A DNA stretch of 64,000 bases. Source: Verrucomicrobia bacterium UBA2281 (lineage in GTDB: Bacteria > Verrucomicrobiota > Kiritimatiellia > CAIQIC01 > Lenti-01). Numbering within the stretch: the first letter of the stretch is position 1; every line of letters starts with the position of its first letter. A model generated the notes under the pieces. It made no database searches. It was not told the DNA's origin and was given only the letters and a program-made list of their open reading frames with translations. The stretch is taken from positions 59,685 through 123,684 of the forward strand of contig DDWR01000024.1 in NCBI GenBank assembly GCA_002347655.1. Direction: 5' to 3'. Positions 12,502 to 34,065 of the stretch are shown piece by piece. A program made the position numbers and the translations under genes.

Positions 12502-12577
12502 GGCGCGCCCGTTGGGGTCAGCCCTTAAGAATCAAGAAATGGTTTCTTGATTCTTAAGGGCTGACCCCGGCAAGTTT

Positions 12578-13762
12578 TTGGGAGCATGGTATCGTGGGGG
12601 CGTGAGGAAACGAGGGATCATCGGGCTGGGAATGGCGTTGTTGTGGGGATTGCCGCTGGCCGGGGGCGCGGCATGCGGCTTTGATGCCCGGTTCTTCCGA
12701 TTCCCGCCGCTGGTGACGCATCCGCCCATCCACGCGCCTTTTTCCTGGCCGGTGTTCGCCGTTTTCGCGGTGATCGGCCTTCTCGCCGCCGCCATCCTGA
12801 TCGTCGGCTTCAAGCCCCCGCGCCTTTGCGGCACGGATGGATCGGTTTCATCCGCTCCGCCGCCGCCGCCCAAGGGCCCCTTCCCCCGCCACGGCCGCCT
12901 TGGCCTCGGCCTGCTCCTCGTCGCCTGGTTTCTCGCCTGGAGCCGCCTCGATCTGCCCGGCCCCGCCGAACAACACACCTTTTTTCCGCTCTGGCTCGGA
13001 TTCATCTTTTTCCTCGACGGACTCACCTACCGCCGCGCGGGACGCTCGCTCTTCGCGAACCGCCGCTCAACCTTCCTCCTGATGTTCCCCGTCTCCGCCC
13101 TCTCGTGGTGGTATTTCGAGTTCCTCAACCGCTTCGTCCGGAACTGGTGGTATCCCGACCGCCTGGATTTCGGCCCCGTCCATTACTTGGTCTACTCCTC
13201 GCTCTGCTTTTCCACCGTCCTCCCGGCCATCTTCGAAATCCGCGAACTGCTCATGACTGTCCCCGCCCTGCGCCGCCGCTGGTCCCACGGCCCGCGCGTC
13301 CGCCTGCCGCGCGCCGGCGCGATATTTTTCATTCTGGGCGCCGCGCTGCTGCCGCTGATTCCGCTTTTCCCCGATCCGCTCTTTTTCGCCGTCTGGCTCG
13401 CGCCTCTCGCCCTCCTCGCCGGCGCCCTTGGCCTCGCCGGCGCGAAATCGCCCTTCGCTCCCATCCGCGCCGGCAACTGGACACCCATCCTGACCCTCGC
13501 CCTCGCCGCGCTGGTCTGCGGCTTCTTCTGGGAGCTGTGGAACGCCTTCAGCTCCCCGCGCTGGGCCTACGCCGTGCCCTACGTCGGCCGCTTCCGCGTC
13601 TTCGCCATGCCCGCCGTCGGCTACGCCGGCTACCTGCCCTTCGGCCCCGTCTGCGCCTGCTTCTGGCTGGCCTGGACCGGCCTGCTCCGCAGGCGGGGGT
13701 CAGGGGCCAGGGTTCAGGATTCAGCCGGATCGGATCTTCTTTTCCTGAACCCCGAACCCTGA
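12578..13762 (+). CDS. hypothetical polytopic membrane protein
   Basis: 394-aa ORF with about 8 hydrophobic segments; no family recognised by eye. The C-terminal about 20 codons are read through the GGGTTCAG REP element, so the true stop or start is uncertain. Confidence 0.5.
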   Translation: MGAWYRGGVRKRGIIGLGMALLWGLPLAGGAACGFDARFFRFPPLVTHPPIHAPFSWPVFAVFAVIGLLAAAILIVGFKPPRLCGTDGSVSSAPPPPPKGPFPRHGRLGLGLLLVAWFLAWSRLDLPGPAEQHTFFPLWLGFIFFLDGLTYRRAGRSLFANRRSTFLLMFPVSALSWWYFEFLNRFVRNWWYPDRLDFGPVHYLVYSSLCFSTVLPAIFEIRELLMTVPALRRRWSHGPRVRLPRAGAIFFILGAALLPLIPLFPDPLFFAVWLAPLALLAGALGLAGAKSPFAPIRAGNWTPILTLALAALVCGFFWELWNAFSSPRWAYAVPYVGRFRVFAMPAVGYAGYLPFGPVCACFWLAWTGLLRRRGSGARVQDSAGSDLLFLNPEP

Positions 13763-13790
13763 CCCCTGTTTCTGAACCCTCTTCCGCTTG
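13697..13790. repeat. REP-like inverted repeat of GGGTTCAG/CTGAACCC units
   Basis: cagggttcaggattcag ... ctgaaccccgaaccctgaccc forms a long hairpin. The same unit family recurs at 29821-29853, 30296-30340 and 31211-31319. Confidence 0.5.
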
Positions 13791-22261: not shown

Positions 22262-23134
22262 ATGACCATCACCGCCCAGATCGTCGCCGACAGCGTTTCG
22301 CCGCAGGGCATCCGCCTCTCCACGCTTTCGCTGAAATATCCCCGCTGGATCCACGCGGAATTCATGACGCACCGCCTGTTTTCGCGCAACGCCAGCAGCT
22401 CGCGCGCCGTGCCGTCGAAGCGCCTGCGCGCGCTGGAGCGCGAGTATCCCCTCTGGTGGGGCGCCAACATTCCCGGCATGCAGGCCGGCGGGAAGCTCTC
22501 CGACGAGCAGGGCACCAAGGCCAAGGCCATCTGGGACCGCATGGCCGACGCCTGCATCGAAGGCGTCGCCGAGCTCGCCGAGCTGGGCCTGCACAAGCAG
22601 TGGGCCAACCGCCCGCTGGAATGGTTCACGTCCATTTCCGTGCTTGTGTCGGCCACGGCGTTCGACAATTTCTTCGGCGTGCGCTGGCATCCCGACGCGC
22701 AGCCCGAAATCCAGGAACTGGCCCGGCAGATGTTTTCGGCCCTGCAGTCCGCCACGCCCCGCCCCCTGGAACCCGACCAGTGGCACCTGCCCTACGTCTC
22801 CGCCGACGAGGAAAAAGCCCTCGGTCTCGACGTCGCCCGGCGCTGCTCGGCCGCGCGCTGCGCGCGCGTGTCCTACCTCAACCACGACGGCACCACGCCC
22901 AACGTCGCCAAGGACCTCGACACGTTCGCCAAGCTGGCCGGCGATCCCAACGGCCCGCCGCACCCGCTGCACGCCTCGCCGATGGAACACCAGGCCACGC
23001 CCGACCGCCTGCGCGACGCCGCCGATGCCGAATCGTGGCAGTTCCCGGCCCAGCACGGCAATTTCCGCGGCTGGCGGCAGTATCGCAAGATGCTCTCCAA
23101 CGAGCACATCGCGAGATTCACGCCGCCCGCTTGA
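22262..23134 (+). CDS. divergent ThyX-like (flavin-dependent thymidylate synthase family) protein
   Basis: LKYPRWIHAEFMTHRLFSRNASSSRA aligns with the ThyX RHRx7SxRY motif ([27 protein letters not shown]) but has T for the first R and A for Y. The C-terminal GNFRGWRQYRKMLSNEH matches ThyX NYRAWRHFIAMRASEH. A middle segment FFGVRWHPDAQPEIQELA also resembles that motif. Confidence 0.65.
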   Translation: MTITAQIVADSVSPQGIRLSTLSLKYPRWIHAEFMTHRLFSRNASSSRAVPSKRLRALEREYPLWWGANIPGMQAGGKLSDEQGTKAKAIWDRMADACIEGVAELAELGLHKQWANRPLEWFTSISVLVSATAFDNFFGVRWHPDAQPEIQELARQMFSALQSATPRPLEPDQWHLPYVSADEEKALGLDVARRCSAARCARVSYLNHDGTTPNVAKDLDTFAKLAGDPNGPPHPLHASPMEHQATPDRLRDAADAESWQFPAQHGNFRGWRQYRKMLSNEHIARFTPPA

Positions 23135-23149
23135 CGAATGGTTTTCCGG

Positions 23150-23225
23150 CGGGCCCCACGGTCTTGTGCCGTGGGGGAGCAAACTTTGCCTCCCACGGGA
23201 CAAGCCCGTGGGGGGGCTAAGATCC
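23150..23225. repeat. pair of REP-like hairpins (CCCACGG-N6-7-CCGTGGG)
   Basis: cccacggtcttgtgccgtggg and cccacgggacaagcccgtggg between the ThyX-like and RNR-like genes. Confidence 0.5.
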
Positions 23226-23311
23226 AATCGGGCCAAACTTCCGCTTTCCTCTCCCCTCCTTTTGACCTAGAATCCGCCCGAATTTTGCACCGCGTTTTTC
23301 CGGAGAACACC

Positions 23312-25297
23312 ATGCCCGAAACCTACCAGCCGTCGCTCCGCGCCCAGATCCTCACCCGCCGCACCTACAACCGCGTCCTCGACGACAAAGGCACCGTCTT
23401 CGAGACCTGGGCGCAGACCGTGGATCGCGTCATCGAACACCAGCGCTGGCTGTGGAAGCGCCAGATGCGCCGCGCGCTCAACAAGACGCAGGAAGCGGAA
23501 CTTGAAGAGCTCCGCGGCCTGCTCCTCGCCCGCAAGGTCGGCGTCGCCGGCCGCACGCTGTGGCTCGGCGGCACCGAAATCTCGAAGGTCCGCGAAGCCT
23601 GCCAGTTCAATTGCGCCCATCTCGAAATCCAGACCGTCGACGACATGGTGGACGCGCTCTGGCTCCTGCTGCAGGGCTGCGGCGTGGGCGTCACGCCGAA
23701 ATCCGGCGGCATCAGCGGCTTCACCCAGCCGATCCTCGACATCCAGATCGTCCGCTCCACGCGCCAGGACAAGAACGGGCGCGATGGCAACTTGGAAACC
23801 TGGGATCCCGAAACCAAGGTCTGGACCATCAGCGTCGGCGATTCTGCCGAAGCCTGGGCGAAGTCCGTCGGCAAGCTGCTCGCCGGCAAGTACGCGGCCG
23901 ACAAGCTGATCCTCGATTTCTCGGAAATCCGCCCCGCCGGCACGCGCCTCACCGGCTACGGCTGGATCGGCCAAGGCGACGAGACGATCTCCGTGGCCTA
24001 CCGGGCCATCGCCGAAATCATGAACCGCCGCGCGGGCCAGCTTCTGCGCAAGATGGACATCCACGACGTCTGCAACTGGCTGGGCACGATCCTCAGCACG
24101 CGCCGCTCGGCGGAAATCAGCCTGTTCGAATACGGCTCCCCCGAATGGCAGGAATTCGCCGTCTGCAAGAAGGACTACTGGAGCAAAGGCCAGCCCCAGC
24201 GCGGCATGTCCAACAATTCGCTCGTTTTCTACGACAAGCCCACGCGCGCGGAATTGCGCGGCCTCTTCGACCTCATGCTCGCCGCGGGCGGCTCGGAGCC
24301 CGGCTTCATCAACGGCGCGGCGGCGCTCAACCGCGCGCCGTGGTTCTCCGGCGTCAATCCCTGCGCCGAAATCCTGCTGGGCAACCGCGCGTTCTGCAAC
24401 CTGACGACGATCGATCTCGCCAAGTTCAAGGACAACCCCAGCGGCATGCACCGCGCCATTTCCGTCATCGCGCGCGCCAACTACCGCCAGACCTGCGTCA
24501 ACCTCAAGGACGGCATCCTCCAGCACTCCTGGCACGAGAACAACGACTTCCTGCACCTCTGCGGCGTATCGCTCACCGGCGTCGTGCGCCGGCCGGATCT
24601 CGGCCCCTACGAGCTGCGCCTGCTGCGCAACGCGGCCATCATGGGCGCCTATTCCATGGCCGACGAACTCGGCCTGCCGCGGCCCAAGAACGTCACCACC
24701 CTCAAGCCCGAGGGTACCATCTCGAAGTGCTACGACACGACGGAAGGCGCCCACAAGCCGCTCGCGCGCCACGTTTTCAACAACGTCACCTTCGTCAAGC
24801 ACGACCCGCTCGTGCCCGTCCTGCGCGAGGCCGGCTACAAGATCATGCCCCACCCCAACGGCACCGGCGACTGGGTCATCACGCTGCCCGTGGCGTGGGA
24901 CGACGTGGATTTCGAGAAGGTCGGCGACCTCGAAGTGAACGAAGAATCCGCCATCGACCAGCTCGAGCGGTACAAGCTTCTGATGGACAACTACGTCGAG
25001 CAGAACTGCTCGATCACCGTCAGCTACGATCCCTCGGAAGTGGACGCCATCGTGGAGTGGCTGCTGCAATATTGGGACCACTACGTCGGCGTGTCGTTCC
25101 TGCTGCGCGCCGATCCGCTGAAGACCGCCGCGGATCTCGGCTTCCCCTACCTGCCGCAACAGCCCGTCTCCAAGGCCGAATACGACGCCTACGTCGCCAG
25201 CCTCAAGCCCATCGATCTCGAGCGGGTCAAGGCCCAGTCCGAGGACGCCGTGGACATGGGCAACGAATGCGCCGGCGGCGCCTGTCCCGTCCGCTGA
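23312..25297 (+). CDS. divergent class II (B12-type) ribonucleotide reductase-like protein
   Basis: ATG at 23312 inside track ORF 23138..25297; the RNR active-site block VNPCAEILLGNRAFCNLTTIDL corresponds to NPCGEIxL...CNLGSINL; loop QGCGVGVTPKSGG corresponds to GGGVGxxxSxLRPKG; NrdJ-like N-terminus (LRAQILTRRTYNRVLDDKGTVFETWAQTVDRV); C-terminal Cys pair ECAGGACPVR; 661 aa. Confidence 0.7.
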   Translation: MPETYQPSLRAQILTRRTYNRVLDDKGTVFETWAQTVDRVIEHQRWLWKRQMRRALNKTQEAELEELRGLLLARKVGVAGRTLWLGGTEISKVREACQFNCAHLEIQTVDDMVDALWLLLQGCGVGVTPKSGGISGFTQPILDIQIVRSTRQDKNGRDGNLETWDPETKVWTISVGDSAEAWAKSVGKLLAGKYAADKLILDFSEIRPAGTRLTGYGWIGQGDETISVAYRAIAEIMNRRAGQLLRKMDIHDVCNWLGTILSTRRSAEISLFEYGSPEWQEFAVCKKDYWSKGQPQRGMSNNSLVFYDKPTRAELRGLFDLMLAAGGSEPGFINGAAALNRAPWFSGVNPCAEILLGNRAFCNLTTIDLAKFKDNPSGMHRAISVIARANYRQTCVNLKDGILQHSWHENNDFLHLCGVSLTGVVRRPDLGPYELRLLRNAAIMGAYSMADELGLPRPKNVTTLKPEGTISKCYDTTEGAHKPLARHVFNNVTFVKHDPLVPVLREAGYKIMPHPNGTGDWVITLPVAWDDVDFEKVGDLEVNEESAIDQLERYKLLMDNYVEQNCSITVSYDPSEVDAIVEWLLQYWDHYVGVSFLLRADPLKTAADLGFPYLPQQPVSKAEYDAYVASLKPIDLERVKAQSEDAVDMGNECAGGACPVR

Positions 25298-26860: not shown

Positions 26861-28399
26861 ATGAATACCCTCGGCCGCGTCAAGCAAGGCTTCTACTTCG
26901 ATTCCGTCACCCTCATGCGCGTCGGCCGCGAACTGTCCGGCTTCCCCGGCGTCGCCGAGGCTTCCGTCGTCATGGCCACCGAGGCCAACAAGTCCATCCT
27001 CGCGATGTCGGACCTGCTGCTGCCCGAATTCAAGAAGTGCGGCGACCAGGACCTGGCGATCGTCGTGCGCGCCAAGGACGCCAAGACCGCCAACGAGGCC
27101 CTGGCCAAGGCCGAGGAGATGCTTTCCCGCAAGAGGAAGCCCGCCGCCGGCGGCGCCGCGGAAGCCCCCGCACCGCGCGACCTCGCTTCCGCCGCCGCCG
27201 CCCTCCCCGGCGCGAACCTCGCCCTGATTTCCGTCGCCGGCCGCTACGCCGCGCGCGAAGCCCGGCGAGCCCTCGACCTCGGGCTCAACGTCATGCTCTT
27301 TTCCGACAACGTTTCCATCGCGGACGAAGTCGCCCTGAAAAAACTCGCCCACAAGAAGGGCCTGCTCGTCATGGGCCCCGACTGCGGGACCGCCATCCTC
27401 AACGGCGTGCCGCTGGCTTTCGCCAACGTCGTGCCCAAGGGGTCCATCGGCATCGTCGGCGCCTCCGGCACCGGCACGCAGGAGGTCACCTGCATCATCG
27501 CCAACGAGGGCTCCGGCGTGTCGCAGGCCATCGGCACCGGCGGGCGCGACGTCAAGGACGCCGTCGGCGGCATCGCGTTCCTCGACGCCATGCAGGCGCT
27601 GGCCGACGATCGGGAAACCAAGGTCATCCTCCTCGTCTCCAAACCGCCCCAGCCCGGCGTCCTCAAGAAGATCTACACCCTCATCCGCAAAATCAACAAG
27701 CCCGTCGTATCCCTGTTCCTCGGCGAGGACGGCACCCCGGCCACGCTCGAACAGGCCGCGCTCCTCGCCGTCGCCCACGCCAAGGGCGAAGATCCCGTGA
27801 AGGCGCTCGCCCATCTGACCCGCCGCGACGAGATCCTCGCGGCCGAAGCCCGCCAGATCGTCGCCAAGCGGAAGAAACCCAAAGGCCGCCATCTCCGCGG
27901 CCTCTTCAGCGGCGGCACCTTCTGCGCCGAGGCCCAGGTCGTCCTCGACGGCCTGATCCGCAACGTCTATTCCAACGCTCCCCTCGGCGATTCCCACAAG
28001 CTCAAGAACGCCTGGAAGCCCGAAAAGAACGCCGTCGTCGATCTCGGCGAGGACGAATTCACCGTCGGCCGCGCCCATCCGATGATCGATTTCACGCTGC
28101 GCAACAAGATGATCCTCGAGCAGGCCGCCGCCCCCGACGTCGCCGTGATTCTCCTCGACGTCGTCCTCGGCTACGGCGCCAATCTCGACCCCGCCGGCGA
28201 ACTGGTTCCCGCGATCAAGCAGGCGGCGAAGAAGGTCTTCGTCGTCGCGGGCGTCAACGGGACCATCGGCGATCCCCAGAACCGCGCCCAGGTCGTCGAA
28301 GCCCTCCGCGAAGCCGGCGCCCACGTCCAGCTCACCAACGCCGCCGCCTGCAAGCTCGCCGGCCTGATCGCCGCCGAGGTGGCCCGCAAGAACCGCTGA
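26861..28399 (+). CDS. FdrA-family protein (CoA-binding / succinyl-CoA-synthetase-alpha-like; AllF-like)
   Basis: MNTLGRVKQGFYFDSVTLMRVGREL...; CoA-binding and ligase-CoA domain sequence; 512 aa, typical FdrA architecture. Confidence 0.8.
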   Translation: MNTLGRVKQGFYFDSVTLMRVGRELSGFPGVAEASVVMATEANKSILAMSDLLLPEFKKCGDQDLAIVVRAKDAKTANEALAKAEEMLSRKRKPAAGGAAEAPAPRDLASAAAALPGANLALISVAGRYAAREARRALDLGLNVMLFSDNVSIADEVALKKLAHKKGLLVMGPDCGTAILNGVPLAFANVVPKGSIGIVGASGTGTQEVTCIIANEGSGVSQAIGTGGRDVKDAVGGIAFLDAMQALADDRETKVILLVSKPPQPGVLKKIYTLIRKINKPVVSLFLGEDGTPATLEQAALLAVAHAKGEDPVKALAHLTRRDEILAAEARQIVAKRKKPKGRHLRGLFSGGTFCAEAQVVLDGLIRNVYSNAPLGDSHKLKNAWKPEKNAVVDLGEDEFTVGRAHPMIDFTLRNKMILEQAAAPDVAVILLDVVLGYGANLDPAGELVPAIKQAAKKVFVVAGVNGTIGDPQNRAQVVEALREAGAHVQLTNAAACKLAGLIAAEVARKNR

Positions 28400-28416
28400 T
28401 CGCAAAGGAATCCGCC

Positions 28417-29820
28417 ATGAGCATCCAGAAACTCTTCTCCGCCCCCCTCCAGGTCGTCAACGTCGGCATCGAATCCTTCAAGGAAGCTTGCGAAAAGAAC
28501 GGCGCCCCGGCCGTCCAGGTCGATTGGCGCCCCCCCGTCGAGGTCGCGCCGGAATCCGAAGCCATCTTGGCCAAGCGCGCCGCGAAGATCGAGAAGGCCA
28601 ACCAGAAGGTCATGGAGATCATCCTGGCCGGCACGCCCAAGCTCGTCGGGCTCGACGTCGCCCGCAACGTGATCCCGGGCATGACCGAGGACACCATCCT
28701 GCACGCCGGTCCGCCGATCACCTGGGACCGCATGTGCGGCCCGATGCGCGGCGGCGTCATGGCCGGCCTCGTCTACGAAGGCCGCGCCAAGACGATCGAG
28801 GAAGCCGAAAAACTCGCTTCCTCCGGCAAAATCAAATACGCCCCCTGCCACGAGCATGGCGCCGTCGGGCCCATGGCCGGCATCGTCACGCCGTCCATGC
28901 CCGTTTGGATCGTCAAGAACGAGAAATACGGCAACATCGCTTTCTGCACCCTCAATGAAGGCCTCGGCAAAGTCCTGCGCTACGGCGCGTTCGGCGACGA
29001 AGTCACCCAGCGCCTCAAGTGGATGGAAACCGTCCTCTATCCCGTCCTCAAGGCCGCCGTCGCGCACTCCGGGCCCATCGACCTGAAGAACCTGATCGCC
29101 CAGGCCCTGCACATGGGCGACGAAGTCCACAACCGCAACCGCGCCGGCACCTCGCTGCTCTACCGCGCCCTCGCCCCCGCCATCGTCGCCACCTGCGACA
29201 ACAAGGACGACGCCGTCGCCGTGCTCAACTTCATCAACGGCAACGATCACTTCTTCCTGAACCTCTCCATGCCCGTCTGCAAGGCCACGCTCGACGCCGC
29301 CCGCAACGTCAAAGGCAGCTCCATCGCCGTCGTCATGGCCCGCAACGGCACCGATTTCGGCGTCCAGCTCGCCGGCACGGGCGACCTGTGGTTCACGGCT
29401 CCCGCCGAAGTGCCCGACGCGCTGTATTTCGCCGGCTTCACCAAGGCCGACGCCAATCCCGACATCGGCGACAGCGCCATCACGGAGACCGGCGGCCTCG
29501 GCGGCTTCGCCATCGCCGCCGCCCCCGCCATCGTGCAGTTCGTCGGCGGCTCCGCCGCCGACGCGGTGCGCTACACCCACCAGATGTACGAGATCACCGC
29601 CGGCGAAAGCCGCATGTACCAGATCCCCGCCCTCGATTTCCGCGGCACCCCCACCGGCATCGACGTCCGCAAGGTCGTCGAGAAGAACCTCGTCCCCGTC
29701 ATCGACACCGGCGTCGCCCACAAGCAGGCCGGCGTCGGCCAGGTCGGCGCCGGCATCGTCTCCGCCCCCATGGGACCTTTCGCCAAGGCCTACGACGCAT
29801 TGGCCAAGATCCTGAAGTAG
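28417..29820 (+). CDS. DUF1116-family protein (YlbE/AllG-like)
   Basis: In-frame ATG at 28417 (MSIQKLFSAPLQVVNVGIESF...), 467 aa, inside spurious track ORF 27037..29820; the fdrA-DUF1116 adjacency matches E. coli fdrA-ylbE. Confidence 0.75.
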   Translation: MSIQKLFSAPLQVVNVGIESFKEACEKNGAPAVQVDWRPPVEVAPESEAILAKRAAKIEKANQKVMEIILAGTPKLVGLDVARNVIPGMTEDTILHAGPPITWDRMCGPMRGGVMAGLVYEGRAKTIEEAEKLASSGKIKYAPCHEHGAVGPMAGIVTPSMPVWIVKNEKYGNIAFCTLNEGLGKVLRYGAFGDEVTQRLKWMETVLYPVLKAAVAHSGPIDLKNLIAQALHMGDEVHNRNRAGTSLLYRALAPAIVATCDNKDDAVAVLNFINGNDHFFLNLSMPVCKATLDAARNVKGSSIAVVMARNGTDFGVQLAGTGDLWFTAPAEVPDALYFAGFTKADANPDIGDSAITETGGLGGFAIAAAPAIVQFVGGSAADAVRYTHQMYEITAGESRMYQIPALDFRGTPTGIDVRKVVEKNLVPVIDTGVAHKQAGVGQVGAGIVSAPMGPFAKAYDALAKILK

Positions 29821-29853
29821 GAGTCAGGGTTCAGAGTTCAGGGTTCAGGCAAG

Positions 29854-30312
29854 ATGGGCGAGTTTCGGAAATTGGAGGATCTGATCGTCTACCAGAAGCT
29901 CTGCCAGCTCCATATCGAGATCTCGGGCATATCCCATCGCTGGCCGGCCGAGGAAAAATTCGAGTTGGGAGCGCAAATCCGGCGTTCCTCGAACAGCGCG
30001 GCCGCCCAGTTGGCCGAAAAGTACGATGATCGCCATATTCGCAACAAAATCGAGGGGATCAACCGCAGCCGCGGCGAGGCCGCAGAGTCCGTCCATCATC
30101 TGTTCATGGCCCATTTGAAAAGATACGAAACCCTTGAAACGTACGAATCATACCGTTTGCGCTATCAGGAATGCATCCGTATGCTGAACGGCATGGAACG
30201 AACTTTGGGAAAACAGCTTCCCGAAGCCGCTCGCCGCTGGCCGGCCGTGCAGGAGCAACCCGGCGATTACAGCGCCGTCGGCTTTCCGGACCCCTCTTCA
30301 ACTGAACCCTGA
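29854..30312 (+). CDS. four-helix-bundle protein (23S rRNA intervening-sequence protein family)
   Basis: 152 aa, MGEFRKLEDLIVYQKLCQLHIEISGISHRWPAEEKFELGAQIRRSSNSAAAQLAE..., typical of this family. The gene is flanked by inverted blocks of GGGTTCAG repeats at 29821-29853 and 30296-30340. Confidence 0.75.
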   Translation: MGEFRKLEDLIVYQKLCQLHIEISGISHRWPAEEKFELGAQIRRSSNSAAAQLAEKYDDRHIRNKIEGINRSRGEAAESVHHLFMAHLKRYETLETYESYRLRYQECIRMLNGMERTLGKQLPEAARRWPAVQEQPGDYSAVGFPDPSSTEP

Positions 30313-30358
30313 ACCCCGAACCCTGACCCCTATTGAAAAAAAGAAAGGACCCTCCAAA

Positions 30359-31210
30359 ATGAACAACAACCAATTCATCGACTTCCTGGACAACGCGCAG
30401 ATGTTCGATCTGACGATGCGCCTCAGCGTGCACACGCCGCCGTGGCCGTCGTACATGCCGCTGGGCATCCAGTACTTCAAGCGCCTCGCCGGCGCGCACA
30501 TGGGCCAGGGCGCCAACGGGCAGATCATCACCACCTCCAACCACGTCGGCACGCACATGGACGGCGAGATCCACTTCTATCCCGCCGGCCGCTCGATCGG
30601 CAACGTGCCCCTGCGCGAGTGGGTCGGCCCCGGCGTCGTCGTAGACATCTCCAAGGACGTCTCCGACTACTCGCTCTACACCCCCAAGATGATCACCGAC
30701 AAGGTCGAGGTGAAGAAGGGCGACATCCTGATCATCAACACCGGCTACCACCGCTATTCCTGGGACCAGAAGACCGGCGATGAAATCCGCTACTTCGTCA
30801 TGCACCCCGGCCCGAGCCCGGACTTCGACGACTGGTGCGAGAAGATGCAGATCAAGTGGATCGGCGTGGACTGCGGCAGCGCAGACCACCCCATGAACAC
30901 GATCATCCGCACCTGGCATCCGGGCCGCTTCCAGGAATGCGACGCCAAGATGAAGAAGATCTACGGCAAGTCCTTCGACGAGATCTTCCCGCTCAAGAAG
31001 TACTACCAGGTCATGCACCTCAAGCTCTTCCCCAAGGGCATCGTGCACGCCGAAAACATCGCGGGCGACATCGCCAAGCTCGGCAGCACCCGCTGCTGGA
31101 TCGGCTGCTTCCCGCTGCGCGGCATCGAGCTGGAATCCAGCATGTGCCGCATCGTCGCCTGGCTGCCGCCCAAGGCCAAGAAGGCCGCCAAGAAGGCCAA
31201 GAAGAAGTAG
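30359..31210 (+). CDS. putative cyclase family protein (kynurenine formamidase-like metal hydrolase)
   Basis: HxGTHxDxPxH motif NHVGTHMDGEIHF; 283 aa; Lys-rich tail. Confidence 0.75.
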   Translation: MNNNQFIDFLDNAQMFDLTMRLSVHTPPWPSYMPLGIQYFKRLAGAHMGQGANGQIITTSNHVGTHMDGEIHFYPAGRSIGNVPLREWVGPGVVVDISKDVSDYSLYTPKMITDKVEVKKGDILIINTGYHRYSWDQKTGDEIRYFVMHPGPSPDFDDWCEKMQIKWIGVDCGSADHPMNTIIRTWHPGRFQECDAKMKKIYGKSFDEIFPLKKYYQVMHLKLFPKGIVHAENIAGDIAKLGSTRCWIGCFPLRGIELESSMCRIVAWLPPKAKKAAKKAKKK

Positions 31211-31319
31211 CCAGAGTTCAGAGGTCAGGGTTCAGGGAAGACGGGCCGGGATCGAATCCCGAACCCCGAACCCTGAACCCTTTTGCTTTCCCCCCTGAAC
31301 TCCGAACCCTGAACCCTTT
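31211..31319. terminator. bidirectional REP-like hairpin cluster between the cyclase (+) and recR (-) genes
   Basis: agggttcagggaag...cccgaaccccgaaccctgaaccc inverted GGGTTCAG units form long stems followed by T-runs (cttttgctttcc / ccttttcacg). Confidence 0.5.
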
Positions 31320-33964: not shown

Positions 33965-34065
33965 GCGAGCCAGGATTCCCACGGCACCCGGAAGGACCGC
34001 CATACCGTTGCTGCCTTCCGGCCCTGGCGGGGTTTTGGCGGCATCCGTCGCATGGGACCCAACCC
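33965..34065 (-). ncRNA. ffs: probable SRP RNA (4.5S/ffs-type)
   Basis: Minus-strand sense CCGCCAGGGCCGGAAGGCAGCAACGGUAUGGCGG matches SRP domain IV (E. coli CAGGUCCGGAAGGAAGCAGCCAAGG) with a GGAA tetraloop; it sits immediately upstream of dnaX, the conserved ffs-dnaX arrangement. Exact ends are uncertain. Confidence 0.5.

What the first reader, a model, noticed from the sequence alone, without database searches (positions are those of the whole stretch)
26861..31319. FdrA-DUF1116 cluster lacking AllH, with an inserted four-helix-bundle cassette and a cyclase
FdrA and the DUF1116/YlbE-like protein are two of the three subunits of oxamate carbamoyltransferase (AllF/AllG/AllH in E. coli). Here the DUF2877/AllH partner and carbamate kinase are absent. 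Instead a putative metal-dependent cyclase/amidohydrolase (HxGTHxD) follows, suggesting a variant pathway, perhaps an amide or formamide hydrolysis step feeding a carbamoyl/CoA transfer. A four-helix-bundle gene of the 23S-IVS family sits between DUF1116 and the cyclase. It is flanked on both sides by inverted GGGTTCAG repeat blocks (29821-29853 versus 30296-30340), as expected for a small mobile cassette that landed inside an operon.
Basis: partly seen in the sequence, partly recalled or inferred. Interest (0 to 1): 0.5.

Follow-up and report, generated by a model that had tools for sequence, protein, structure and literature searches.

The report
Trimmed ureide operon hosting hairpin cassette
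A three-gene enzyme operon (AllF, AllG and a metal amidohydrolase), a cut-down form of a seven-gene cluster shared by many anaerobic bacteria, is split by a small hitchhiking gene enclosed in a long hairpin of 7-base repeats, the same design as the inserts that fragment ribosomal RNA in some bacteria.

Summary
allF/fdrA (26861-28399), allG/DUF1116 (28417-29820), a PF05635 four-helix-bundle gene (29854-30312) and a PF04199 cyclase-family gene (30359-31210) lie on one strand. Inverted GGGTTCA-heptamer arms (29818-29848 / 30302-30332) enclose the small gene. No AllH, carbamate kinase or xanthine-dehydrogenase-type gene occurs in the 64 kb.

The gene order allF-allG-cyclase recurs in more than ten anaerobic phyla. 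There it is normally allH-allF-allG-cyclase plus three XDH-family subunits: AllH in 50/58 informative loci, XDH in 63/70. The window's Kiritimatiellota-like clade carries a trimmed three-gene version at a fixed chromosomal site, under strong purifying selection. Its chemistry is inferred only.

The small gene is an element of the 23S-rRNA-intervening-sequence type:
- Homologues in 72 other gene contexts carry the same or co-varying heptamer arms.
- They usually sit between co-directional genes.
- The cassette is present, absent or replaced among close relatives.
- The protein is conserved (dN/dS about 0.1) but has foreign codon usage.

The Coxiella 23S IVS and Xanthomonas XCC0516 show the same heptamer association. 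No held paper links the arrays to this protein family.

Verdict: a real feature, a new variant of known kinds, moderately interesting.

The parts
26861..28399 (+). allF / fdrA (512 aa): SucD-like CoA-binding plus CoA-ligase domains, with the conserved His motif GRAHPMID
   Evidence: NF004760 scores 487 bits (cut-off 433), with PF00549 and PF02629. It is 42% identical to E. coli FdrA. The G[RK]xHPMID motif is present in 62 of 63 AllF sequences.
28417..29820 (+). allG / DUF1116 (467 aa). Its first ~35 residues correspond to the C-terminal segment of E. coli FdrA.
   Evidence: PF06545 E 1e-99. It is 45% identical to YlbE. PDB 3CLQ matches at E 1e-129. Residues 10-39 match FdrA model positions 510-539.
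29818..29849 (+). Left arm of the cassette: about four tandem heptamers (GGAGTCA GGGTTCA GAGTTCA GGGTTCA). It begins at the allG stop codon and ends about 4 nt before the 4HB start codon.
   Evidence: It pairs with the right arm in both the MFE and the centroid fold.
29854..30312 (+). Four-helix-bundle protein gene (152 aa) of the S23p / 23S-rRNA-IVS / Avd family. GC3 is 0.69 against 0.90-0.96 in neighbouring genes. The stop codon TGA lies inside the right arm.
   Evidence: PF05635 and TIGR02436. The AF2 model has 4 helices, and the best PDB matches are 2GSC, 2RLD and 4DWL. dN/dS is 0.07-0.16. GC3.
30301..30332 (+). Right arm: tandem TGAACCC-type heptamers complementary to the left arm. The unit supplies TGA in all three frames.
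   Evidence: In 57 of 67 related cassettes the ORF stops within or next to a tandem TGAnnnnTGA.
30333..30358 (+). A-rich spacer with a ribosome-binding site (AAAGAAAGGA) for the cyclase gene. Relatives with and without the cassette share it.
   Evidence: Junction alignment. Empty sites are seen in L018 and L013.
30359..31210 (+). Cyclase-family metal-dependent amidohydrolase (283 aa) with the HxGTHxDxxxH motif and a clade-specific Lys-rich C-terminal tail
   Evidence: PF04199 E 1e-32. It is 72-77% identical to proteins from other phyla. dN/dS is 0.015-0.14.
31213..31317 (+). ORF-less hairpin of the same heptamers: left arm 31213-31237, right arm 31256-31281 followed by TTTT, and a second right-arm copy at 31293-31317 also followed by TTTT. 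It lies between the convergent cyclase and recR genes and is probably the operon's terminator.
   Evidence: The fold gives -47 kcal/mol, z -4.3. The 46 nt at 31201-31246 are 85% identical to 29814-29859, including the bases around the 4HB start codon (D2).
13694..13768 (+). Second ORF-less heptamer hairpin. The upstream ORF (12551-13762) reads through it and stops at a TGA in its right arm (...FLNPEP*).
   Evidence: The fold gives -47.4 kcal/mol, z -3.7.

Best explanation
Two things are superimposed.

(A) The operon. allF-allG-cyclase is a single operon. It is a trimmed, lineage-specific derivative of a widely conserved anaerobic cluster: allH-allF-allG-cyclase-xdh(FAD)-xdh(FeS)-xdh(Mo).
- Shown: the family assignments, the conserved linkage, the loss of adjacent allH and xdh in this clade, and strong purifying selection on the three retained genes.
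- Inferred: AllF/AllG form the core of an oxamate-carbamoyltransferase-like enzyme. It cleaves an N-carbamoyl amide (an oxalurate-like ureide) with phosphate to give carbamoyl phosphate.
- Inferred: the cyclase-family Zn/Mn amidohydrolase does the neighbouring hydrolytic step, either opening a cyclic ureide to make that substrate or hydrolysing the amide product.
- Inferred: in the full cluster the molybdenum hydroxylase oxidises the N-heterocycle first.

(B) The cassette. Between allG and the cyclase gene sits an element of the 23S-rRNA-intervening-sequence type. It is a 152-aa S23p/Avd-family four-helix-bundle gene in the loop of a ~31-bp stem built from inverted arrays of the heptamer GGGTTCA.
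- It has no evident promoter of its own and lies in the sense orientation, so it is transcribed with the host operon (inferred).
- Its ribosome-binding site and start codon abut the left arm, and its stop codon lies in the right arm.
- The stem is long enough to be an RNase III substrate, as shown for the Coxiella IVS. Cleavage would release the small mRNA and separate allFG from the cyclase message (inferred, not tested).
- The element family is dispersed and turns over. The means of movement is unknown.
For: (A) Operon.
- Family assignments.
- The cyclase is 72-77% identical across Elusimicrobiota, Ignavibacteria, Riflebacteria, Eisenbacteria, Cloacimonadota, Bacteroidota, Verrucomicrobiota and others.
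- Precomputed Pfam neighbourhoods in three phyla show AllH-AllF-AllG-Cyclase-FAD_binding_5-Fer2-Ald_Xan_dh.
- Among 73 genome loci outside the window's clade: AllG lies directly upstream in 54/66, AllH is present in 50/58, and XDH lies within 2 kb downstream in 63/70. In the window's clade AllH is 0/5 and XDH 0/3.
- Recurrent accessory genes are an AtzE-like amidase (22 loci), an oxalate-type family III CoA-transferase (14), a thiolase-like protein (24), a uracil/NCS2 permease (8) and an isochorismatase-family protein.
- Published work places AllFGH with biuret/allophanate ureide genes (PMC12625717) and shows it to be oxamic transcarbamylase in E. coli (PMC11326118).
- Synteny thyX-RNR-OMP-allF-allG-(4HB)-cyc-recR-ybaB-dnaX is conserved in five relatives.
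- dN/dS is 0.06-0.18 for allG and 0.015-0.14 for the cyclase.

(B) Cassette.
- Arms and statistics.
- The MFE and centroid folds pair the arms around the whole ORF (z -5.1).
- In the 68 of 80 metagenome loci with usable flanks, almost all hold inverted GGGTTCA arrays.
- Variant units change on both arms together: GGTGTCA in six loci, GTGTTCA in L140, GAGGTCA in L047, GGGTTAC in Cloacimonadota L052 and GTTTCAG/A in Bacteroidota L048.
- 72 of the 80 loci lie in contexts other than allG-cyclase. They sit tightly between co-directional genes, for example two ABC permease genes, MoxR-DUF58, and a GFO/IDH/MocA oxidoreductase with a GHMP kinase.
- Two cassettes lie 7.9 kb apart on one contig.
- Among close relatives the site differs. 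L018 and L013 are clean empty sites. L010 (cyclase dS 0.14) has a different small hairpin. L009 has an ORF-less 8-mer hairpin.
- L047 has flank dS of 0.25-0.29 but cassette dS of 1.29 and different heptamers, which points to replacement.
- 4HB dN/dS is 0.07-0.16 and GC3 is 0.69 against about 0.92 in neighbours.
- Fold matches are 2GSC, 2RLD and 4DWL.
- The Coxiella 23S IVS has 2-3 tandem heptamers directly upstream of its S23p ORF and is excised by RNase III (PMC4990558).
- Xanthomonas XCC0516 (PDB 2GSC) has a GGGAATC array overlapping its start, next to bccP (PMC4692102 supplement).
Against: (A) Operon.
- E. coli needs all three of AllF, AllG and AllH for activity, and no AllH is in the window. 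The enzyme here may be incomplete, may use an AllH encoded elsewhere, or may catalyse something else.
- No carbamate kinase was found in the window or in any of the 80 genome loci (a single-sequence E. coli YbcF model, weak). This weakens the carbamoyl-phosphate-to-ATP logic.
- AllF is by fold an acyl-CoA-synthetase alpha-like protein, so CoA chemistry is not excluded.
- No substrate is identified.

(B) Cassette.
- Mismatches in the stems show no excess of G.U over A.C on the sense strand (37 against 51). Selection for pairing in the sense RNA is therefore not demonstrated; complementarity could be maintained at the DNA level.
- No target-site duplication was seen, no near-identical copies (paralogues on one contig are 84% identical), and no transposase. 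Active transposition is not shown.
- The cassette has persisted at this site over dS of about 1, so it may have been co-opted.
- RNase III cleavage is an analogy only.
Confidence: 0.7

Rival explanations
1. The cluster is an ordinary, complete oxamic transcarbamylase system. allH, and perhaps the xdh genes and a carbamate kinase, are simply encoded elsewhere in the genome, so nothing about the pathway is variant.
For: E. coli needs AllH. A few other genomes split the cluster: L080, L081 and L082 separate the cyclase from allHFG by several kb, and L059 rearranges it. Only 64 kb of a 382-kb contig could be read.
Against: AllH is absent from up to 7 kb upstream of allF in five related genomes that have conserved synteny. 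None of the best 120 AllH-profile hits lies on a contig of 382,506 bp (a weak test). Two Verrucomicrobiota loci keep allF-allG-cyc-xdh but also lack AllH within 10 kb.
Confidence: 0.35
2. AllF/AllG here work as an ADP-forming acyl-CoA-synthetase-like enzyme, not a carbamoyltransferase. The cyclase supplies or removes an acyl or amide substrate, so the pathway is CoA-based.
For: AllF carries CoA_binding and Ligase_CoA domains and a SucD-like His motif. CoA-transferases and thiolase-like genes recur next to the full cluster.
Against: The only biochemically characterised member is a transcarbamylase with no CoA requirement reported. AtzE-like amidase, isochorismatase-family and NCS2 permease neighbours point to ureide/nucleobase chemistry.
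Confidence: 0.15
3. The four-helix-bundle gene is not selfish. It is a domesticated regulator or RNA chaperone of the operons it sits in, and the heptamer stem is a regulatory or processing signal that sets the ratio of upstream to downstream gene expression.
For: Purifying selection is strong (dN/dS 0.07-0.16). The cassette has persisted at the allG-cyc site across dS of about 1. Its sense orientation inside operons is consistent. Avd, a structural relative, is a nucleic-acid-binding accessory protein.
Against: It is absent from very close relatives with an otherwise identical operon (L010, L018). The host operons are functionally unrelated. Codon usage is foreign. It was replaced by a divergent copy in L047.
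Confidence: 0.2
4. The heptamer hairpins are the primary elements (REP/BIME-like or terminator-like repeats of this genome), and the four-helix-bundle ORF merely happens to lie in one of them.
For: Two ORF-less hairpins of the same heptamers occur in the window, one with a T-run like a terminator. Solo arrays occur in 12 related loci. Xanthomonas has 70-75 inverted heptamer pairs per genome.
Against: The ORF-arm association holds in about 60 of 68 loci, and across phyla with different heptamers. The ORF fits the arms exactly: the start lies 5-12 nt after the left arm and the stop lies inside the right arm. The ORF-less hairpin at 31213 keeps 85% identity to the cassette's left end, including the bases around the start codon. 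This fits a deletion derivative.
Confidence: 0.15

Closest known systems
E. coli oxamic transcarbamylase AllF-AllG-AllH with carbamate kinase AllK (PMC11326118)
   Same: AllF (42% identity) and AllG (45% identity) are clear homologues. They are adjacent and in the same order, and the His motif is conserved.
   Different: No AllH or AllK lies nearby. A cyclase-family amidohydrolase follows instead. The ~35-residue segment at the C-terminus of E. coli AllF sits at the N-terminus of AllG here. There are no allantoin genes, and the operon is embedded among housekeeping genes.
Conserved but uncharacterised anaerobic cluster allH-allF-allG-cyclase-xdhFAD-xdhFeS-xdhMo (found here in Elusimicrobiota, Ignavibacteria, Cloacimonadota, Bacteroidota, Verrucomicrobiota, Kiritimatiellae and others)
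   Same: The allF-allG-cyclase core has the same order. AllG is 64-72% identical and the cyclase 72-77% identical.
   Different: The window's clade lacks allH upstream and the three xdh genes downstream. It also lacks the amidase, CoA-transferase and permease accessories.
Kynurenine formamidase / isatin hydrolase (cyclase family PF04199; PDB 4COB, 5NNA)
   Same: Same Pfam family and the same HxGTHxDxxxH metal-binding motif.
   Different: The relationship is distant (E 6e-8 over about 85 residues). The protein scores far below the arylformamidase equivalog cut-off. It is about 70 residues longer and forms a distinct, very conserved subfamily linked to AllFG.
23S rRNA intervening sequences carrying an S23p ORF (Coxiella burnetii, Leptospira; PMC4990558)
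   Same: Same protein family. The ORF sits in the loop of a long stem. Tandem heptamers lie directly upstream of the start codon, with the ribosome-binding site in or next to the stem. GC content is lower than the host's. Distribution among relatives is sporadic.
   Different: The host is an mRNA operon spacer, not 23S rRNA. The ORF is under strong purifying selection, whereas the Coxiella ORF is decaying. The heptamer is GGGTTCA, not GACAGAT. RNase III processing is untested.
Intergenic heptamer repeat arrays (Xanthomonas GGGAATC, Nostoc GGGGA(C/T)T, Beggiatoa TAACTGA; PMC4692102, PMC4679880)
   Same: Tandem 7-nt units in intergenic regions, often as convergent inverted pairs able to form stem-loops, with variable copy number.
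   Different: Those papers discuss G-quadruplexes or translational control and do not mention the four-helix-bundle protein. Here the arrays bracket that gene.
Avd, the accessory protein of diversity-generating retroelements (PDB 4DWL)
   Same: Same fold and Pfam family.
   Different: No reverse transcriptase or template/variable repeats nearby.

Membership tests
Oxamic transcarbamylase AllFGH(K) | AllF/FdrA subunit | tested here: met
   NF004760 scores 487 bits against a cut-off of 433. tblastn to E. coli FdrA gives 42% identity, E 4e-98.
Oxamic transcarbamylase AllFGH(K) | AllG/YlbE (DUF1116) subunit | tested here: met
   PF06545 E 1e-99. It is 45% identical to YlbE.
Oxamic transcarbamylase AllFGH(K) | AllH/YlbF (DUF2877) subunit, required for activity in E. 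coli | tested here: not met
   No hit in the six-frame window with E. coli YlbF, three foreign AllH proteins or a 58-sequence profile. Presence elsewhere in the genome could not be tested.
Oxamic transcarbamylase AllFGH(K) | Adjacent catabolic carbamate kinase | tested here: not met
   No YbcF homologue in the window or in the 80 related genome loci (single-sequence E. coli model).
Oxamic transcarbamylase AllFGH(K) | Oxalurate + phosphate <-> carbamoyl phosphate + oxamate activity | not testable with these tools
   Needs an enzyme assay.
Cyclase / kynurenine formamidase family (PF04199) | Family HMM above threshold and the HxGTHxDxxxH metal site | tested here: met
   PF04199 scores 113.5 bits against 23.1. 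H62, H66, D68 and H72 are invariant.
Cyclase / kynurenine formamidase family (PF04199) | Arylformamidase (KynB) equivalog | tested here: not met
   TIGR03035 scores 47.6 bits against a cut-off of 223.
S23p / 23S-rRNA-IVS four-helix-bundle protein | Family HMMs above threshold | tested here: met
   PF05635 scores 70.9 against 33.8. TIGR02436 scores 65.5 against 24.
S23p / 23S-rRNA-IVS four-helix-bundle protein | Four-helix-bundle fold like Xcc0516 / BT_0352 | tested here: met
   The AF2 model has pLDDT 75 and four helices. The top Foldseek PDB hits are 2GSC and 2RLD, with target-normalised TM 0.67-0.79 but weak E-values (best 3.7e-3, none at or below 0.001).
23S rRNA intervening sequence (IVS) element | ORF in the loop of a long stem formed by terminal inverted repeats | tested here: met
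   The 31-nt arms are 90% complementary and pair in the MFE and centroid folds.
23S rRNA intervening sequence (IVS) element | Located in a 23S rRNA helix | tested here: not met
   It lies between two protein-coding genes. Rfam finds no rRNA in the window.
23S rRNA intervening sequence (IVS) element | Excision by RNase III | not testable with these tools
   Needs RNA end mapping.
DGR accessory protein Avd | Adjacent reverse transcriptase and template/variable repeats | tested here: not met
   The neighbours are allG and the cyclase. No RVT domain appears in the +/-10 kb precomputed Pfam annotation.
MITE / transposon | Terminal inverted repeats | tested here: met
MITE / transposon | Target-site duplication | tested here: inconclusive
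   No duplication is evident when filled and empty sites are compared, but the empty sites come from other species.
MITE / transposon | Multiple near-identical copies in one genome | tested here: not met
   Two copies on one contig are only 84% identical at the protein level. No second ORF-bearing copy lies in the window.
Intrinsic terminator | GC-rich stem followed directly by a U-run | tested here: not met
   This holds for the cassette: its right arm is followed by CUAUUGAAAA. The ORF-less hairpin at 31213-31281 is followed by UUUU, so that one does meet the criterion.

The most novel reading that the evidence does not exclude
S23p/Avd-type four-helix-bundle genes bracketed by inverted heptamer arrays may form one widespread class of hairpin element. 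On this reading the class colonises intercistronic spacers of operons as well as 23S rRNA helices, in Kiritimatiellota, Cloacimonadota, Bacteroidota, Xanthomonas and Coxiella. The abundant 'orphan' heptamer arrays and inverted pairs of bacterial genomes would be its ORF-less derivatives. The pentameric protein would be the element's own nucleic-acid-binding factor, acting in propagation, maintenance of the arms or RNA processing. A second, independent reading concerns the operon: AllF-AllG plus the cyclase-family hydrolase may be the conserved catalytic core of a new anaerobic route for nucleobase or ureide breakdown, and this core can work without AllH.
Probability: 0.35. Interest if true: 0.75.

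Novelty: new variant of a known kind. Interest (0 to 1): 0.55.

Why it matters
1. AllFGH was identified as the long-sought oxamic transcarbamylase only in 2024. This window leads to a much broader, uncharacterised seven-gene cluster in many uncultured anaerobes. In it AllFG is tied to an extremely conserved amidohydrolase and a molybdenum hydroxylase. It also leads to natural AllH-less versions. Both give concrete handles on what AllH does and on an unknown anaerobic nucleobase or ureide pathway.

2. The origin and mobility of 23S rRNA intervening sequences, and the function of their S23p protein, have been open for over 30 years. So has the meaning of the heptamer repeat arrays common in bacterial genomes. 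Finding the same protein-plus-heptamer-hairpin design inside ordinary operons links these puzzles. The design shows gain, loss and replacement among close relatives, and the protein is under purifying selection. Together these make the puzzles testable outside the ribosome.

Tried and rejected
- Pseudogene or decaying remnant of the AllFGH cluster: rejected. The reading frames are intact, all invariant residues are kept, and dN/dS is 0.015-0.18.
- AllH hidden in the window as a divergent or unannotated ORF: rejected with a 58-sequence profile run at maximum sensitivity.
- AllH function supplied by a fusion or extension of AllF or AllG: rejected. The lengths equal those in genomes that do have AllH.
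- AllH on the same 382-kb contig: none of the top 120 AllH-profile hits has that contig length. This is only a weak negative.
- DGR Avd: rejected. There is no reverse transcriptase nearby.
- Known RNA family in the hairpins: Rfam finds only SRP RNA in the window.
- Sense-RNA selection on the stem, judged by an excess of G.U over A.C mismatches: not found (37 against 51). RNA-level against DNA-level function is left open.
- Own promoter for the cassette or the cyclase: the only sigma-70-like match (30333-30360) overlaps the cyclase ribosome-binding site and start codon, and is no more than chance would give.
- Literature on AllFG with a cyclase and XDH, on an oxidative pyrimidine/barbiturate route in anaerobes, or on the GGGTTCA repeats: nothing was found in the held library.
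- Solved structures related to AllH: none.

Full report
SOURCE AND LAYOUT

The window is part of a 382-kb metagenome contig (JGI 3300040971). The same genes appear in anaerobic-digester assemblies. The closest genome records are MAGs labelled Kiritimatiellia, Verrucomicrobia, Lentisphaerae or 'Spartobacteria'. The window is 65.9% G+C.

The region holds four genes on the + strand:
- allF/fdrA, 26861-28399
- allG/DUF1116, 28417-29820
- a four-helix-bundle (4HB) gene, 29854-30312
- a cyclase-family gene, 30359-31210

Two outer-membrane beta-barrel genes precede them. The convergent recR-ybaB-dnaX genes follow. All family assignments pass curated thresholds.

CHECK OF THE OBSERVATION

The inverted blocks are real.
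- The arms 29818-29848 and 30302-30332 are 31 nt long and 90% complementary.
- GGGTTCAG occurs 10 times against 1.96 expected.
- A two-heptamer probe hits only three places in 64 kb, against 0.15 expected.
- The same inverted-repeat score at random positions almost never reaches 12; the cassette scores 22.
- The repeat unit is a heptamer, GGGTTCA on the left and TGAACCC on the right.

AllH, carbamate kinase and XDH-type genes are absent from all six frames of the window. Pfam scans of the other large ORFs found only housekeeping and envelope genes.

THE ENZYME GENES IN CONTEXT

The cyclase-family protein is strikingly conserved, at 72-77% identity to proteins of very different phyla. It is only distantly related to kynurenine formamidase and isatin hydrolase. 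It fails the arylformamidase equivalog cut-off.

Neighbourhoods in three phyla show the same cluster: AllH, AllF, AllG, cyclase, then the FAD, 2Fe-2S and molybdopterin subunits of a xanthine-dehydrogenase-family enzyme.

A scan of species-representative genomes returned 80 loci, which I annotated with profile searches. Outside the window's clade:
- AllG lies directly upstream of the cyclase in 54 of 66 informative loci.
- AllH is present in 50 of 58.
- An XDH FAD subunit follows within 2 kb in 63 of 70.

Recurrent extras are an AtzE-like amidase, an oxalate-type family III CoA-transferase, a thiolase-like protein, a uracil/NCS2 permease and an isochorismatase-family protein.

The normal cluster, however, includes AllH. 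The window belongs to a tight clade (AllF at least 76% and AllG at least 82% identical). In this clade allF-allG-cyclase stands alone at a conserved chromosomal site, thyX-RNR-OMP-allF-allG-cyc-recR-ybaB-dnaX. AllH is found in 0 of 5 loci and XDH in 0 of 3. Two Verrucomicrobiota loci keep XDH but also lack AllH.

The three genes are not decaying.
- The His motif G[RK]xHPMID is kept.
- The cyclase metal site is kept.
- dN/dS is 0.015-0.18.

The C-terminal ~35 residues of E. coli AllF are encoded at the start of allG here. This fits a tight AllF-AllG complex.

What the module does is inference. E. coli AllFGH is oxamic transcarbamylase and needs all three genes (PMC11326118). AllFGH(K) also sits beside biuret/allophanate genes in nitrifiers (PMC12625717). 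The neighbours found here point to anaerobic breakdown of a nucleobase-derived ureide:
1. A molybdenum enzyme hydroxylates the ring.
2. The cyclase-type amidohydrolase opens a ring or hydrolyses an amide.
3. AllFG(H) cleaves the N-carbamoyl amide with phosphate.

No paper in the held library describes this cluster. Whether this clade has AllH elsewhere could not be tested. A profile search found no AllH on a contig of this length among the top 120 hits, which is weak evidence.

THE CASSETTE

The 152-aa protein is a PF05635/TIGR02436 member. Its AF2 model has four helices and a disordered tail. The best PDB matches are Xanthomonas Xcc0516, Bacteroides BT_0352 and the DGR protein Avd, with target-normalised TM 0.67-0.79; the Foldseek E-values are weak (best 3.7e-3, none at or below 0.001).

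As RNA, the region 29812-30342 folds so that the two arms close a stem around the entire ORF (z -5.1).

A metagenome scan with this protein returned 80 loci.
- In the 68 with usable flanks, almost all have inverted heptamer arrays on both sides.
- Where the unit differs, it differs on both arms. Examples are GGTGTCA/TGACACC and GTGTTCA/TGAACAC, and GAGGTCA/TGACCTC in L047.
- Only 8 loci, those with the closest proteins, are at the allG-cyclase site. The other 72 are elsewhere.
- The cassettes usually sit tightly between co-directional genes in the same orientation. Examples are two ABC permease genes, MoxR and DUF58, and an oxidoreductase with a GHMP kinase.
- One contig holds two cassettes 7.9 kb apart inside a polysaccharide cluster.
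- In 60 of 67 cassettes the ORF ends in TGA. In 57 the stop lies in or next to the tandem TGAnnnnTGA of the right arm. The left arm ends 5-12 nt before the start codon in most cases.
- A 7-nt unit containing TGA gives a stop in every frame after three copies.

TURNOVER AT THIS SITE

Relatives show every state at the allG-cyclase spacer.
- Clean empty sites of 29-35 nt that keep the same A-rich spacer and ribosome-binding site: L018 and L013.
- A different small palindromic hairpin with a T-run: L010, whose cyclase dS to the window is only 0.14.
- An ORF-less hairpin of 8-mers: L009.
- Cassettes with 3 to more than 10 heptamers: L011, L012, L047 and L090.

Between the window and L047 the flanking genes differ by dS 0.25-0.29, but the 4HB gene differs by dS 1.29 and the arms use another heptamer. 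That cassette was therefore replaced or acquired separately. Against L090 and L011 the cassette and flank divergences agree, which indicates vertical descent.

The protein is under purifying selection (dN/dS 0.07-0.16). Its GC3 is 0.69 against 0.90-0.96 for its neighbours.

LINK TO KNOWN ELEMENTS

The Coxiella 23S rRNA IVS carries an S23p ORF in the loop of an RNase III-cleaved stem. It has two or three tandem heptamers (GACAGAT) directly upstream of the start codon, and a lower G+C than the genome (PMC4990558).

Distant 4HB genes in a Bacteroidota locus and a Cloacimonadota locus are flanked by inverted GTTTCAG/A and GGGTTAC arrays.

In Xanthomonas campestris, a study of GGGAATC heptamer arrays reports 70-75 inverted pairs per genome. 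Its supplementary table places one array between bccP (XCC0517) and XCC0516, overlapping the XCC0516 start. XCC0516 is the crystallised S23p-family protein. The paper never mentions that protein family (PMC4692102).

The window's cassette is therefore best described as an IVS-type element living in an operon spacer.

The two ORF-less hairpins in the window look like relatives or derivatives.
- The one at 31213-31317 shares 85% identity with the cassette's left end, including the bases around the start codon. It is followed by T-runs and probably serves as the terminator between the cyclase gene and recR.
- The one at 13694-13768 is read through by the upstream ORF, which stops in its right arm.

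LIMITS

- The mismatch spectrum of the stems shows no preference for G.U on the sense strand. I cannot say whether pairing matters in RNA or in DNA.
- No target duplication, transposase or near-identical copies were seen, so the way the element spreads is unknown.
- RNase III processing and co-transcription are inferred by analogy and from gene spacing.
- The chemistry of AllF-AllG-cyclase is inferred from neighbours and one characterised homologue.

VERDICT

The metabolic part is a trimmed variant of a widespread, uncharacterised AllFGH-cyclase-XDH cluster. The inserted gene is an IVS-like heptamer-hairpin cassette of a dispersed family. Both are new variants of known kinds. The cross-phylum link between the four-helix-bundle protein and heptamer arrays is the most interesting lead.

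Noticed in passing
window 13694-13768 (and the ORF 12551-13762): An ORF-less hairpin of the same GGGTTCA heptamers. The upstream ORF has no Pfam match. It reads through the left arm and the loop and ends ...FLNPEP* at a TGA in the right arm, the same ending as the 4HB ORF (...STEP*). The arms therefore act as stop signals in any frame.
   Followed up: partly
window 31213-31317: An ORF-less heptamer hairpin after the cyclase gene, with a duplicated right arm. Each right arm is followed by TTTT. It is probably a terminator between the convergent cyclase and recR genes. Its left end is 85% identical to the cassette's left end, including the bases around the 4HB start codon.
   Followed up: partly
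window 28417-28530 (start of allG): The first ~35 residues of AllG match the C-terminal segment (residues 513-539) of E. coli FdrA. The boundary between the two genes has shifted between lineages.
   Followed up: partly
window 31171-31207 (end of the cyclase gene): A Lys/Ala-rich C-terminal tail (PPKAKKAAKKAKKK) is present only in the window's clade. It is absent from homologues in other phyla (alignment A1).
   Followed up: no
L006-L008 and about 60 of L010-L089: A conserved, apparently uncharacterised cluster: allH-allF-allG-cyclase-xdhFAD-xdhFeS-xdhMo. It occurs in many anaerobic phyla, often with an AtzE-like amidase, an oxalate-type CoA-transferase, a thiolase-like protein, a uracil/NCS2 permease and an unknown 258-aa protein upstream of allH.
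   Followed up: partly
L009 2385-2530; L010 236-276: At the same allG-cyclase spacer, one relative has an ORF-less hairpin built from 8-nt units (TGGAATAT). Another has a CGGATCC-based palindromic hairpin followed by a T-run. The site seems to attract different hairpin elements.
   Followed up: partly
P0004-P0011 and similar entries: Chloroflexi/Anaerolineae homologues of the cyclase are 445-493 aa long. They score about twice as high as their identity would suggest, which indicates tandem duplication of the domain.
   Followed up: no
P0285: An AllH (PF11392) protein fused to a DUF35/OB ChsH2 domain (PF01796). DUF35 partners of thiolase-like proteins also occur next to the full cluster (L008).
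   Followed up: no
window 33965-34064 (-): A bacterial small SRP RNA (Rfam RF00169, 69.8 bits) lies directly upstream of dnaX. No tRNA genes occur in the 64 kb.
   Followed up: yes
window 22262-25297: thyX and a ribonucleotide reductase gene (RNR_Alpha domain, Pfam PF17975) sit together upstream of the operon. This pairing is conserved in relatives L018 and L047.
   Followed up: no
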